From positions 1 to 35,735 of the IMG/VR virus record IMGVR_UViG_3300044695_003817: a stretch of DNA of 35,735 bases; one strand, given 5' to 3'. Each line of letters starts with the position of its first letter. The first letter of the stretch is position 1. The notes under the pieces were generated by a model. It was given only the letters and a program-made list of their open reading frames with translations. It had not been told where the DNA came from and searched no databases. This document shows, piece by piece, positions 4,391 to 35,735 of the stretch. A program made the position numbers and the translations under genes. This DNA comes from a virus (Duplodnaviria > Caudoviricetes).

Positions 4391-4726
4391 ATGATCCCCA
4401 AACACACCTACGTCAGAAGCAAAAAACTATTAAAGCTGGTGGCAAGCTTGGACTGCCAGCACTGCGGAAGCGGGCACATGGTGCAGGCAGCGCACTCAAA
4501 CATGGCGCAACACGGCAAAGGAAGGGGAATCAAGGCCAGTGACGAATACACAGCCGCCTTGTGCCTGAAGTGCCACTATGAAATCGATCAGGGGGCAAAG
4601 TTTTCCAGAGAAGCCAGACAGACCGCATGGATGGCAGCGCACATCGCAACGGTTAGAAAACTGGTGGACAGCGGGCAATGGCCTGTTGACATACCTATAC
4701 CAAACCAAGCACAATTCATGCGCTGA
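4391..4726 (+). CDS. Zn-binding HNH-like protein (DUF968/Ref-like)
   Basis: CQHCG, QAAH, GRGIKASD, LCLKCH motifs; located before terS. Confidence 0.7.
   Translation: MIPKHTYVRSKKLLKLVASLDCQHCGSGHMVQAAHSNMAQHGKGRGIKASDEYTAALCLKCHYEIDQGAKFSREARQTAWMAAHIATVRKLVDSGQWPVDIPIPNQAQFMR
4686..4715 (+). promoter_or_regulatory. Putative late promoter TTGACA-18-CACAAT
   Basis: Perfect -35 upstream of the packaging operon. Confidence 0.45.
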
Positions 4727-4741
4727 CAGTTGTTAGCTTTT

Positions 4742-4760
4742 GGGGCTTCGGCCCTTTTTT
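4742..4760 (+). terminator. Terminator GGGGC-TTCG-GCCCT-T5
   Basis: UUCG tetraloop hairpin followed by a U-run. Confidence 0.65.
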
Positions 4761-4771
4761 AAGGAGTAACC

Positions 4772-4900
4772 GTGAAAACCCTATTCACAATCGCAGCCCT
4801 GCTGTTTTCTTTTGCAGCCCAAGCCCAGACCACTACCCGGTGCGTTAAGAACTTGGATAACAGCTACACCTGCACCACGACCAGAAATAGTGGCTTCTGA
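4772..4900 (+). CDS. 42-aa secreted peptide (signal peptide plus two Cys)
   Basis: AAGGAG RBS, GTG start; MKTLFTIAALLFSFAAQA-QTTTRC...C; stop overlaps the terS ATG. Confidence 0.7.
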   Translation: MKTLFTIAALLFSFAAQAQTTTRCVKNLDNSYTCTTTRNSGF

Positions 4901-29806: not shown

Positions 29807-30058
29807 CTAAAAGGGAAGGTCTTCATCAAAATCGGGCTTTGATTGACGCATTGGCCGGGCTTCTTCTTTCTTCGGCTCGTTGATGTACGCCCAGCCATCC
29901 CAGCCGCCCTCTTCTAGCGGAATGCTGTCGATCTTGAGCATCGGGCCGTTCTTCGTGTCAATAATCGAACCGATGCGGGCGTACCGCTTCTTGACCTCGC
30001 CCTGGGCGTTTTTGTACTCGCCAGTAACGCACGAGATTTCTTTAAGAATTTTGCTCAT
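29807..30058 (-). CDS. SSB-like protein
   Basis: GEY...K.Y..IG...KID.IP; acidic tail DFDEDLPF. Confidence 0.7.
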   Translation of the reverse strand: MSKILKEISCVTGEYKNAQGEVKKRYARIGSIIDTKNGPMLKIDSIPLEEGGWDGWAYINEPKKEEARPMRQSKPDFDEDLPF

Positions 30059-30672
30059 ACATCCATCCTTTGTTTAAGAGCTTGCACTTTTTCATCTACC
30101 TCTGCCAAGAACTTTATGACTTCAGTTTCCGCATTTTTTAACCACTCGTCATCAGCATTTACCCTAATAATGACAAGTTGTAACTTTTGCGGGAAGCGCG
30201 AGTCATACACAACGTAATCGCACCACTGCCGGCCAGCACAGCGCATCTGCCACTGCATCTGAGCGTAGTACTTGCCAGCAACCGTTTGCGATAGCAATGC
30301 CTCCAAAAAGGTTGCAGACTCTGGGCACTTGATCTCTACCATGCCATCAGCCCCGACAAGGCCATCAGGAGAGGCGCCAGCCATCTCAATCGTCGGGTGC
30401 AACAGAAACCCCACTTCCTCAACCAGAACGCCCCTGTAAGCCTCGTATGCGGCCCTAGCAAACGGCTCCTGCTCAATGCCCCACTGCATCGCAGCGTTTG
30501 TGTAGCCATCGGCCCTAGTGCCGGTGATACGCTCCAAGACTAGCTGGGTCATGTAGTGACCGCGATCAGCCCCATAGCCCGTTTTTGTCTTGGCAAGAAC
30601 CTTGTGCAAGTTGCTGGCCGTTACTTTGCCCAGGCGCTGCTTGTCCCATTCTTCTGTTCCTTGCTTAATCAT
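30055..30672 (-). CDS. YqaJ/lambda-type exonuclease
   Basis: QGTEEW..R.G.VTAS, ASPDGL, EIKCP, QMQWQM. Confidence 0.92.
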   Translation of the reverse strand: MIKQGTEEWDKQRLGKVTASNLHKVLAKTKTGYGADRGHYMTQLVLERITGTRADGYTNAAMQWGIEQEPFARAAYEAYRGVLVEEVGFLLHPTIEMAGASPDGLVGADGMVEIKCPESATFLEALLSQTVAGKYYAQMQWQMRCAGRQWCDYVVYDSRFPQKLQLVIIRVNADDEWLKNAETEVIKFLAEVDEKVQALKQRMDV

Positions 30673-30890
30673 TCTTGCCCCCTTGCTCTGTCGTACTCGC
30701 TGCCAGATTTTGTAAAAGCAACCGTGCAATACCCGAGTCCAACGGTTGCCAGAAACTCGGACCAACACTTCGGGCAAACCGGATGGTCTCCTTTAGGCGT
30801 TACTGGCGCGGTATGTCCGTCATCGCTGGAATATAGAAACTCGTGCCCACATTTGATGCACTTGTGTGGCTGCGGAAAAGCGTAGCTCAT
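30669..30890 (-). CDS. Small Zn-finger protein
   Basis: CIKCG...CPKC. Confidence 0.6.
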   Translation of the reverse strand: MSYAFPQPHKCIKCGHEFLYSSDDGHTAPVTPKGDHPVCPKCWSEFLATVGLGYCTVAFTKSGSEYDRARGQE

Positions 30891-31165
30891 GCTTGCCCCC
30901 TTGCTCTGATGGCGGCGGCACCCTTGCGCTTCGCTGCTCCGGCTTGCGGCCATGCCGTCCAAGTGTCAGCCTCTGCCTCAAAGGCCTTCGCAGACGCCTC
31001 GCGCTCCATTGCAATAGCCGTGTCGATCATGTTGCGGGAGTTGCGGTACGCTTGCGAATACGGACTGCCATCTCCAGCAATAAACGTATGACAGGGGAGG
31101 CACAACAAACCGACAAAATGGCCTTGATGTGCGTGGTTTTCGCAGTCCTTGACGGCGCACTTCAT
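30887..31165 (-). CDS. Small Cys/His protein
   Basis: CAVKDC..CLPCH; EREA...AAIRARG tail. Confidence 0.6.
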   Translation of the reverse strand: MKCAVKDCENHAHQGHFVGLLCLPCHTFIAGDGSPYSQAYRNSRNMIDTAIAMEREASAKAFEAEADTWTAWPQAGAAKRKGAAAIRARGQA

Positions 31166-31428
31166 GATTCCCTCGCTTTCAGCATGGCGTCGGCGTACTC
31201 GTATGCGCGTTTTGCAGCGTGCTCTGGCGGGATGCTCAGCCAATGCCCCTGCATCGCCTTGGCCGCCACCTCATCGCGCAAGGACTGGGCAATCATCTCG
31301 TCCAGCCAAACGGTGCCGCTGTCCGGAACCTTGAGCTTGATCGCGGCGTATTCGCGCAGGGTCATGCCGTCATTTTGCAAATTGTGCGCTGGCGTTGGAA
31401 ACGCTGGCCCGCCTGTGGTATCGCTCAT
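31162..31428 (-). CDS. Conserved small phage protein
   Basis: GGPAFP..GMTLR..AAKAMQG..AY.YADAML.AR. Confidence 0.75.
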   Translation of the reverse strand: MSDTTGGPAFPTPAHNLQNDGMTLREYAAIKLKVPDSGTVWLDEMIAQSLRDEVAAKAMQGHWLSIPPEHAAKRAYEYADAMLKARES

Positions 31429-31982
31429 GCTTGCTTCTCCTGTTTGGCGCGCGCAACCCTTGCGGCCTTGGCATCAATGACCCGTTTAATCAGGTCTTGA
31501 TGGCCCTGGCAAGCCTCGTATGCCTGTTTGTAGACCGCTTGCAATTCTTCGCCCGTGGTTGTTGCCTCAATAGCTGCCAGGTGGTCTGTAATGTCAGGCT
31601 TTGGCCCCTTGCGAGCCGCTGCATAGCCATCGTCGTCCTCTGGAGCGATGCCGCAAGCCGCCATCAGGCTGTAGCGCCTGGCGTAAGTCAGAGCAGACCC
31701 AAAGCCCTGGGCATCATGCTTTGTGGCTGGGACATGAATTTGCCCGCAAGAAAAAGTCTCGCCGCTTTCGTGAATAAACACCGTTTCGACCAAGACACCA
31801 GTGTCAGACGGGCTAACCCGCTGCGTGAAGAAAATACCGTTTGCTGAAAGCCCATCCATAACCGCCTCAACGCAGGCCGACAGATCGGCGTAGCGTGAGC
31901 GGAAGTGCGGGTTTGTGCTTGTTTTCAGAGCTGGGCCGAAGGCTTTTTGTGCCTTGACCAGTGCGCTTGCTATCTTGTCCAT
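31425..31982 (-). CDS. erf: ERF-family single-strand annealing recombinase
   Basis: NPHF.S.YADL, HESGE, GSALTYARRYSL...GI..EDDDG. Confidence 0.92.
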   Translation of the reverse strand: MDKIASALVKAQKAFGPALKTSTNPHFRSRYADLSACVEAVMDGLSANGIFFTQRVSPSDTGVLVETVFIHESGETFSCGQIHVPATKHDAQGFGSALTYARRYSLMAACGIAPEDDDGYAAARKGPKPDITDHLAAIEATTTGEELQAVYKQAYEACQGHQDLIKRVIDAKAARVARAKQEKQA

Positions 31983-31987
31983 TTTTT

Positions 31988-32070
31988 CTCCTAAAAAGAC
32001 CCCAGCGGGATGCCAGGGCATGCGATGATTGTATAGACCACTAGACAGTGTGGAATAGGGACTTACCCTA
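31988..32070 (-). promoter_or_regulatory. Early promoter cassette copy 2
   Basis: Homologous to 4306-4388; TACAAT at 32028-32033. Confidence 0.65.
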
Positions 32071-34495: not shown

Positions 34496-34523
34496 TTCAC
34501 TAAACTTGACTTTGATCTAGAAT
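34496..34523 (+). promoter_or_regulatory. pR-like promoter TTCACT-16-TAGAAT
   Basis: -10 ends 7 nt before the cro ATG; no SD sequence. Confidence 0.5.
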
Positions 34524-34529
34524 GCACCC

Positions 34530-34700
34530 ATGACGAAATACGAGGCGATCATTCTTGCAGGCTCCCAGGCTCGGTTAGCCCGGCTACTGGGCATCAGCAG
34601 GGGTGCGGTGCATCAGTGGCAGACCATCCCACAGGGCAGGCTGTGGCAGTTGCGGTGCATCAAGCCAGAGTGGTTTGCTAACCTCGAAAAAGAGGACTAA
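34530..34700 (+). CDS. cro: Cro-like HTH regulator (56 aa)
   Basis: MTKYEAIILAGSQARLARLLGISRGAVHQW..IP..R.WQL; divergent position; below the ORF cutoff. Confidence 0.85.
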   Translation: MTKYEAIILAGSQARLARLLGISRGAVHQWQTIPQGRLWQLRCIKPEWFANLEKED

Positions 34701-35296
34701 CAAGCCTGGGGCCAGTCGAAGCTCTGAAAGCGCAAGCGCGAGTAGGGTAGTACGTTGGCCTCAGACTTGTTGGGAAAGCGAATTCTGTGGACGAAGCCGG
34801 GCGCAAGCCCGCGTGAGCCGGACCAGACGCTGCAAGTACCAACAACCTACACGCATGGGGGCTGGCTAGTCAGGGAAGTCCAAGCGGGTACATACCACTG
34901 GCCCGCCCATACAGGAATGCCCACCAGTCCCCAGCCGTGTTGGTGTCAGCAATCATGAACGGCACCGTAGGCATACGGTGACTTAGGGAAATTCGAGCGG
35001 TTGGCCCGCCCCAAGTAGTGACCAAGTGACGTACCCCTAACCCTGACGTATTCGGGGCGAAATGTGACCAAATGAGAGGGGTGGTCTGCCGACAACCAAC
35101 ACGCATGGGGATGTGGCCGGTGTCGCCACGAATCGAAGGACGCACGACGAGTCCCCAGCCGTGTTGGTGAATGCGCAGGCTGATGCGCACAAATGGTCCT
35201 CTTAGGAGGTGGGCACTCTTATTGCGCATCGTGGCCCTTAAATCCAGACCCGGAAATGAGCAGCGCAAAGCAGGAGATCAGCGCCTGCCACCAACA
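34697..35296 (+). ncRNA. Chain of six structured RNA modules
   Basis: Consecutive long stems with shared GTTGG/CCAAC ends; no credible ORF; followed by a U-run. Confidence 0.7.
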
Positions 35297-35313
35297 ATTT
35301 TTTTCGTAGGGGC

Positions 35314-35342
35314 TTGACAAGACCCAAAATTTGATAGAAACT
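35314..35342 (+). promoter_or_regulatory. Putative promoter TTGACA-17-GAAACT
   Basis: Perfect -35 upstream of the C4-like RNA. Confidence 0.45.
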
Positions 35343-35349
35343 TCATCCC

Positions 35350-35449
35350 GTTGCCGTGGAAAGCGACAGTGAAGGCCGGTTACTCATGCTCTCGCCCTTG
35401 GTTCAAATCCAAAGGGTTTCCACCGAGGGCAGCAGTAACCGGCTTTTTT
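35350..35449 (+). ncRNA. C4/CI-like antisense RNA/attenuator with a T-loop
   Basis: Stem 35372-35384/35434-35446 plus U-run; GGTTCAAATCC T-arm; unpaired TTTCCAC complementary to upstream GTGGAAA. Confidence 0.6.
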
Positions 35450-35608
35450 GTTTTCTACGCGACCGTACTCCGCACGAAAGCAGGGGCCGCAAGTGGGGCT
35501 GCTCGGAAGGAAACCGCGACACGGTATGCCGTAAGGCTAGGGGGCAGTTCCCGAACAATCCGTGCGGCTGGTCGAATCGTCAAGCCGGGGGCGTACTGTA
35601 TCCAATCA

Positions 35609-35735
35609 GTAGCATGACGATCCCTTCAATGGGGGGTGAACCTAACTCGTCCTTCCTCACACTTTGTGGGGTAGGGGGGTCTTTTGGGTGAACCATATGA
35701 ATTATGGTGTTTATGAATCATGTTAAAGACATTTA
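35609..35735. repeat. Terminal direct repeat identical to 1-127
   Basis: Exact match. Confidence 0.95.

What the first reader, a model, noticed from the sequence alone, without database searches (positions are those of the whole stretch)
34697..35296. Chain of six RNA modules with interlocking GTTGG/CCAAC closing stems after cro
Seen: 600 nt with no credible ORF, fully tiled by long stem-closed domains: M0 34697-34773, A 34767-34845, B1 34846-34943, C 34939-35100, B2 35095-35168 and D 35162-35296, then a U-run. At four of the five junctions the 3' strand of one module (GTTGG or CCAAC) is also the 5' strand of the next, so neighbours compete for the same bases; A and B1 simply abut. Module interiors differ but their ends are stereotyped. 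Inference: a polycistronic array of exchangeable small RNAs, processed or shuffled at the shared junction and expressed first from the pR-like promoter, e.g. decoys or sponges against host defence. I cannot assign it to a named family.
Basis: partly seen in the sequence, partly recalled or inferred. Interest (0 to 1): 0.85.

Follow-up and report, generated by a model that had tools for sequence, protein, structure and literature searches.

The report
Swappable phage small-RNA cassette array
Right after its cro gene this phage carries three pairs of folded RNA units that close relatives swap, add and drop like cassettes; each pair is likely cut apart by the host enzyme RNase III into small stable RNAs, some tRNA-shaped, which would most likely act as decoys against host defences.

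Summary
Real, and part of a widespread uncatalogued phage RNA family; the scan found it before on other DNA. The six units are three pairs: an 18-bp stalk round a variable insert (M0, B1, B2), then a module closed by an acceptor-like GUUGG/CCAAC stem (A, C, D). Only the three stalk-to-module overlaps are conserved; C/B2 is optional.

Stalks covary on both strands, with 68 G·U against 5 A·C pairs, so they are + strand RNA. D is tRNA-shaped, with a covarying kissing loop and 71 insert types in 82 copies. Six alleles with cro at least 94% identical carry six different module sets.

E. coli RNase III pair preferences pick one cut register in 50 of 57 stalks and all three here. Two K-12 Qin prophage stalks of like build are cut there in vivo. 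The cut would free each insert and let the next module's stem form, which explains the interlock.

No Rfam match and no describing paper found. Transcription of this copy and function are not shown; decoys against host defence is my best guess (about 45%).

The parts
34496..34523 (+). sigma-70-like promoter in front of cro (probable driver of the array; untested)
   Evidence: 9 of 12 matches; 0.7 such sites expected in shuffles, so weak alone
34530..34700 (+). cro-like HTH gene; its stop codon lies in the 5' arm of the first stalk
   Evidence: phrog_409, E 8.5e-9
34697..34773 (+). Stalk M0: 18-bp stem with C.A mismatch at position 8; predicted RNase III products start at 34705 and 34768; its insert also occurs in a canonical stalk in L108
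34768..34844 (+). Module A: short closing stem, GAA/AGUA internal loop (loop-E-like, label recalled), variable arm; diverged member of a subtype with 15 other examples
34846..34943 (+). Stalk B1: canonical 7 bp + C.C/A.G + 9 bp; predicted products start at 34854 and 34938; insert 96.6% identical in L017 and L090 in other contexts
34938..35094 (+). Module C: multibranch RNA, also found in another closing stem ahead of the tRNA cluster of Klebsiella N4-like phages; alternative closure at 35101 possible in this copy
   Evidence: (21 of 40 pairs with a two-sided change, 5 sequences)
35096..35167 (+). Stalk B2: canonical; predicted products start at 35104 and 35162
35162..35296 (+). Module D: tRNA-shaped scaffold. 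Acceptor-like stem 35162-35169/35289-35296, D-like hairpin 35173-35188, variable arm 35189-35268, T-like hairpin 35270-35288, kissing pairs 35179-35183 with 35278-35282
35298..35304 (+). U7 run: possible 3' end or A/T tract of the next promoter
35314..35447 (+). Separate downstream unit: TTGACA promoter-like site and a two-hairpin C4-like RNA (label recalled); fixed right border of the array in relatives, not part of it
30055..32021 (-). Exonuclease (30055-30777) and Erf-like ssDNA-annealing protein (31425-32021): candidate shuffling machinery (inferred)

Best explanation
The stretch is an array of three stalk-plus-module RNA pairs that related phages exchange as cassettes; it is likely co-transcribed with cro and likely cut by host RNase III into six small structured RNAs that would most likely serve as decoys against host defences. 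Shown: the pair architecture, RNA-type covariation, the tRNA-like fold of D, and exchange of units among near-identical phages. Inferred (about 85%): RNase III cuts each stalk before position 8 of the 5' arm and two pairs lower on the 3' arm. That would release the insert in a 9-11 bp clamp with a 2-nt overhang and create the UGUUGG 5' end of the next module, whose own 3' strand then displaces the 5-bp remnant. Inferred (about 70%): exchange is by homologous recombination between the short constant arms, plausibly via the phage's Erf/exonuclease pair. Inferred (about 45%): the products are shape decoys for host RNA-attacking or RNA-sensing proteins such as tRNA nucleases, with diversity driven by host defences.
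For: Covariation: of 65 distinct loci chosen only by D's 5' 26-mer, 52 have a stalk directly upstream with at least 15 of 18 pairs (74 of 1300 shuffles); positions 5-7 and 10-16 are paired in 50-52 of 52 with many pair types; G.U 68 vs A.C 5. D in 82 copies: D-loop G/A tracks T-loop C/U (G-C 43, A-U 23, G-U 14, A-C 1, other 1; A-U on 12 hairpin backgrounds); 71 insert clusters. Stalk inserts: 142 clusters in 217. Exchange: window, L380, L381, L382, L385 and L386 (cro 94-100%) carry six different sets between the same borders; L380 is an M0-arm/B2 fusion. RNase III: Altuvia 2018 Table S4 scores peak at register 8 in 50 of 57 stalks, in 12 of 18 non-canonical ones and in all three here, but show no clear peak in A, C, D stems. 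K-12 Qin stalks at essQ-cspB (1641215/1641171) and ydfC-dicF (1649182/1649251) are cut in vivo so that the downstream cut creates the 5' end of the next closing stem. Folding: stalk Watson-Crick/wobble pairs P at least 0.82 and module stems at most 0.02 in the precursor; A and D stems at least 0.81 after in-silico cutting. tRNA link: in L381 the slot of D holds an Rfam tRNA match (43.4 bits); likewise L017, L016, L145, L156. Phage tRNAs are known to counter retron-Eco7 and PrrC (PMC11555353, abstract).
Against: No RNA evidence for this phage. The cut is inferred from E. coli rules for a phage of unknown, probably betaproteobacterial, host; the Qin controls are among the 85 duplexes that built the matrix, and four GUUG pairs are fixed by my selection. 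The Qin stalks resemble the enteric variant of the frame; homology is by inspection, not by a model. Most inserts are not tRNA-like by motif: T-loop motif in 6 of 142 stalk-insert clusters (null 0.3) and 1 of 71 D-insert clusters (null 0.2); insert folding is modest (median z -0.87 and -0.6). The array is optional: the more distant cro relatives shown lack it. Tails are mostly AACCU/AACUA, not CCA. Counts are of sequences, not independent events.
Confidence: 0.6

Rival explanations
1. Same processing, but the products are base-pairing or Hfq/ProQ-type regulatory sRNAs that tune host genes, like DicF.
For: DicF comes from the Qin operon that has like-built stalks and is made with RNase III and RNase E (PMC9438474 passages).
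Against: Products are end-clamped with no U-tailed terminator; conserved features are tertiary (kissing loop, internal loops). No antisense match above chance in this genome (best 13 nt, E 0.26). Host targets not tested. DicF itself lies outside the clamped units.
Confidence: 0.17
2. The stalks are cis-acting RNase III processing or stability signals, like T7 early-RNA sites, and the inserts are passengers.
For: The array begins at the cro stop codon; arrays sit in many operon contexts; stalk inserts are weakly structured on average.
Against: One site would suffice; D, C and A cores keep intricate structure across distant phages; identical inserts recur in different frames.
Confidence: 0.1
3. 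RNase P and 3' trimming, not RNase III, make the RNAs, as recalled for phage P4 CI, P1 C4 and phi80 M3 RNAs.
For: Modules end in an acceptor-like stem plus A-C-C/U (97 of 180 stalks are followed by such a closure, null 2.7%); some are tRNA folds; some modules have no stalk (L423).
Against: Module stems are predicted not to form until the stalk is cut; the 18-bp stalk length and register fit RNase III; Qin cuts are rnc-dependent. RNase P may still act second.
Confidence: 0.06
4. Selfish MITE-like repeats (Correia-type; RNase III sensitivity recalled).
For: Constant inverted ends, insertion in many places, two alternative slots in this phage group.
Against: Single orientation in all 206 loci with two or more motif hits; arms covary freely rather than keeping a fixed end sequence; interiors unrelated; target-site duplications not looked for.
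Confidence: 0.04
5. DNA-level cassette system (integron attC- or shufflon-like) using GTT/AAC ends.
For: Ends superficially recall attC cores (recalled); cassettes are exchanged.
Against: G.U bias 68:5 on the + strand; no inversions in 206 loci; no PF00589 integrase in this record (record estimated 69% complete though with terminal repeats); no shared partner protein, largest real neighbour cluster 18 of 148 loci; crossover in L380 lies within the arm.
Confidence: 0.03

Closest known systems
dicBF operon leader and essQ-cspB spacer of E. coli K-12 prophage Qin (RNase III sites; PMC6212723 Tables S3/S5; DicF, PMC9438474)
   Same: Stalks cut in vivo by RNase III whose 3' arm overlaps the next stem-closed unit; a D-like core lies between the dicF-dicB cuts
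   Different: Known only as cleavage sites and the source of DicF; enclosed units not annotated as RNAs; no cassette exchange described in what I read
Phage tRNA clusters with co-transcribed stable RNAs (T4, T5; recalled) and phage tRNAs as anti-defence (PMC11555353, abstract)
   Same: Polycistronic RNAs matured by host nucleases; modules often lie beside or are tRNA folds
   Different: No canonical tRNA here; standard frame with swappable interiors
T7 early-RNA RNase III sites (recalled)
   Same: Stem with central mismatch cut by RNase III
   Different: T7 sites separate mRNAs; here they clamp diverse RNA inserts and set the 5' end of the next RNA
PeSL cassettes of T4-type phages (PMC2839356, abstract)
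   Same: Short repeated elements drive modular shuffling by recombination
   Different: PeSLs are promoter-terminator DNA elements that shuffle protein genes
STnc100 / Pas prophage sRNAs (RF02076; bioRxiv 10.64898/2026.05.13.724894)
   Same: Prophage sRNAs; a sub-threshold STnc100 match lies upstream of an array in Aeromonas phage ST4
   Different: Terminator-ended Hfq sRNAs; no match in the window; not a module

Membership tests
RNase III stem substrate | About two helical turns of near-continuous duplex | tested here: met
   18-bp covarying stalks, 11 positions above the predicted cut
RNase III stem substrate | Pair preferences define one register with 2-nt 3' overhang | tested here: met
   register 8 in 50 of 57 and 3 of 3 here; score like Qin essQ control
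RNase III stem substrate | Cleavage depends on rnc | not testable with these tools
   shown only for like-built Qin stalks
tRNA (RF00005) | Cloverleaf with anticodon arm and canonical D/T loops | tested here: not met
   no ARAGORN or Rfam hit in the window; D has a kissing loop and variable arm
tRNA (RF00005) | 7-bp acceptor-type stem stacked on 5-bp T-type stem | tested here: met
   module D; works like, not member
tRNA (RF00005) | NCCA 3' end | tested here: not met
   window D ends A-AUUU; tails mostly AACCU/AACUA
Any Rfam 15 family | Score at gathering threshold | tested here: not met
   in 36 related loci only tRNA models passed
Hfq-dependent prophage sRNA (DicF, Pas) | 3' terminator hairpin with U tail on each RNA | tested here: not met
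   five of six units have no U tail
Hfq-dependent prophage sRNA (DicF, Pas) | Seed pairing to host mRNA | not tested
   host unknown
Integron cassette array / shufflon | Cognate site-specific recombinase nearby | tested here: not met
Integron cassette array / shufflon | Inversions (shufflon) | tested here: not met
   0 of 206 loci mixed
CRISPR/TIGR-type guide array | Fixed-length spacers and a linked effector gene | tested here: not met
   inserts 20-196 and 29-221 nt; no shared neighbour
RNase P-matured phage RNA (C4, CI, M3) | RNase P-dependent 5' end | not testable with these tools
   stem plus ACC tail is compatible

The most novel reading that the evidence does not exclude
Proteobacterial phages maintain a shared, recombining library of hundreds of structured RNAs in a standard RNase III-released frame, an RNA counterpart of integron cassettes, including a natural tRNA-shaped display scaffold with a hypervariable arm, and use it as an RNA counter-defence arsenal.
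Probability: 0.4. Interest if true: 0.93.

Novelty: categorically new. Interest (0 to 1): 0.8.

Why it matters
It points to a large unannotated class of phage RNA genes: about 440 stored IMG/VR stretches are estimated for one 16-nt stalk motif alone, pieces occur in 1,232 of 5,426 E. coli genomes (mostly 30-40 nt matches), and full D scaffolds in 40 of 51 genome hits, mainly Burkholderiales and Enterobacterales. Cut sites are predicted to the base and like-built units exist in lab E. coli, so it is directly testable. It gives a handle on what the non-tRNA RNAs in phage tRNA regions do. The parts (RNase III stalks, tRNA-like folds) are known; a standard frame with exchanged RNA contents is what I found no description of. 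The scaffold could also be useful for expressing stable RNAs.

Tried and rejected
Rfam: only chance hits. ARAGORN: none. Expression: six runs held 4-5% of words; four were laid and gave only short contigs of relatives' stalks or D ends with other interiors, so no evidence for or against transcription. C-pattern scan: 8 of 11 hits were unrelated sequence. Antisense to own genome: chance level. Dedicated partner protein: none; the top ORF cluster (24 loci) is read-through of the array itself. Integrase: none. First stalk detector also fires on the reverse strand (227 vs 102, shuffled 18) and was replaced by the D-anchored test. Two script errors were fixed: D parsing and junction classes. output was cut in the middle (about L401-L413 not seen). 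Rows dropped: 13 of 65 loci below 15 pairs; loci below 14 pairs, where L054 and L065 are probably false stalks but were kept; 18 parses rejected. Literature: ten searches found no description of the family. Fremin 2023 (PMC10690425): passages read; supplementary files 1, 2 and 4 could not be searched, so pieces may be among its 10,006 candidates. bioRxiv 10.64898/2026.10.21.760802: passages only, supplement not seen. PMC5371410 passages were uninformative.

Full report
Context. The window is a whole virus record with terminal repeats. The stretch starts at the stop codon of a cro-like gene and ends before a promoter-like TTGACA and a separate two-hairpin RNA. No integrase was found and the ORF opposite cro has no PHROG hit. 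Rfam and ARAGORN find nothing.

Observation. The six stems are real. Homologues regroup them into two classes. Stalks (M0, B1, B2) are 18-bp stems, usually 7 bp + C.C/A.G + 9 bp, round a variable insert. Modules (A, C, D) close with a short UGUUGG/CCAACA-type stem followed by ACC or ACU. Each stalk's 3' arm overlaps the next module's 5' strand. Module-to-stalk junctions mostly carry two copies: 40 of 58, with a 3-nt spacer in 36. So three overlaps are conserved and one is optional.

Family. D's 5' 26-mer matches exactly in 68 IMG/VR stretches; parts of the array hit 97 GenBank phage records, mostly through that end. In 65 distinct loci picked on D alone, 52 have a stalk of at least 15 of 18 pairs directly upstream (74 of 1300 shuffles). 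Pairs 5-18 covary, including fully paired variants; pairs 2-4, which overlap the module, tolerate mismatches; G.U outnumbers A.C 68 to 5. All motifs face one way in 206 loci. In 82 D copies both hairpins pair and mostly covary, and one kissing pair switches G-C to A-U on 12 hairpin backgrounds while four others are near-invariant; the arm at the anticodon position is 29-221 nt in 71 clusters. Other modules in the same slot are tRNA folds, some with expanded arms. C has 21 of 40 pairs with two-sided changes in five sequences, about three lineages, and sits in a different closing stem before a Klebsiella phage tRNA cluster.

Exchange. Among cro relatives (51 viral and 12 metagenome loci), the six distinct alleles at 94-100% identity that extend past the stop carry six different sets: window, three pairs; L380, one pair whose stalk joins M0's 5' arm to B2's insert; L381, M0-new module-B2-tRNA-like module; L382, extra hairpin-M0-small module; L385, M0-D with another arm; L386, B2-D with another arm plus a second pair. 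L379 is identical to the window and not independent. More distant relatives that were displayed lack the array or have a lone module. Inserts also move: M0's into L108, B1's into L017 and L090, D's arm into L009, where the array sits at another slot that is empty here. Recombination between the short constant arms explains this; a role for the Erf/exonuclease genes is inference. PeSL cassettes are an analogy (PMC2839356, abstract).

Processing. An earlier scan note (e1-10027281) pointed to Qin, and I checked it. In PMC6212723 (sections 26-27 and supplementary Tables S3, S4, S5a read in part) RNase III cuts at essQ-cspB and ydfC-dicF fall on stalks whose downstream cut creates the 5' end of the next closing stem; these resemble the enteric form of the frame that carries D (by inspection). 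Scoring with Table S4 picks register 8 in 50 of 57 stalks and all three here; pair-order permutation gave p below 0.05 in 13 of 19 tested. The control is circular (essQ best at the true register, dicB second best) and GUUG is fixed by selection. In the precursor stalks dominate and module stems are absent; after the predicted cuts they form. The interlock therefore looks like a one-way switch in which one cut frees an insert and defines the next RNA's 5' end. RNase P or exonuclease trimming may follow (papers seen in listing only).

Function. Not shown. Conserved tertiary features, tRNA-shaped members, closeness to tRNA clusters, high turnover and no partner gene fit decoys aimed at variable host proteins; phage tRNAs do counter tRNA-cutting defences (PMC11555353, abstract). 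Against: most inserts lack tRNA motifs and fold modestly, and RNA runs were uninformative. I put decoy at about 45%, base-pairing sRNA next (DicF precedent, PMC9438474 passages), then cis processing signals.

Novelty. No Rfam family and no description in ten searches; candidate models in PMC10690425 could not be fully checked. Pas/STnc100 sRNAs are a different type (10.64898/2026.05.13.724894, opening part and passages). The scan has reported this kind of array on other genomes; those notes are leads, not support. This locus adds six near-isogenic alleles showing exchange and a base-level explanation of the interlock. Interest 0.8.

Noticed in passing
window 35314-35447: Promoter-like site and a two-hairpin RNA (z -5.5) resembling C4-type antisense RNAs (recalled); no Rfam or GenBank phage hit; conserved with variants in cro relatives.
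   Followed up: partly
window 35455-35690: Second conserved non-coding block, abundant in aquatic metagenome contigs and present in L407 and L106; could be an origin or another RNA.
   Followed up: no
window 4726-4775: Empty version of the slot in which related phages L009 and L016 carry their arrays.
   Followed up: partly
L194 10100-10216 (-) and 18183-18585 (K-12 Qin): Unannotated stalk-plus-module units with mapped RNase III cuts; a D-like core between dicF and dicB.
   Followed up: partly
L001 2170-3620 (Klebsiella phage MY01): Ten tRNA and one tRNA-Sec model matches with no tRNA annotated in the record.
   Followed up: no
L005 (Escherichia phage nithesis): Several short 'hypothetical proteins' are annotated across what is an RNA array.
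   Followed up: no
window 34872-34908 and 34985-35011: B1's insert and C share two short motifs, suggesting a common sub-fold with a T-loop-like bulge.
   Followed up: no
L017, L061, L064, L106: A recurrent small hairpin with a GGAAAGAC loop precedes many stalks; its stem covaries.
   Followed up: no
L011, L022: D arm holds tRNA-like D and T hairpins without an anticodon arm.
   Followed up: no
window 34526-34530: cro start lies about 6 nt after the predicted -10 box, suggesting a leaderless mRNA.
   Followed up: no
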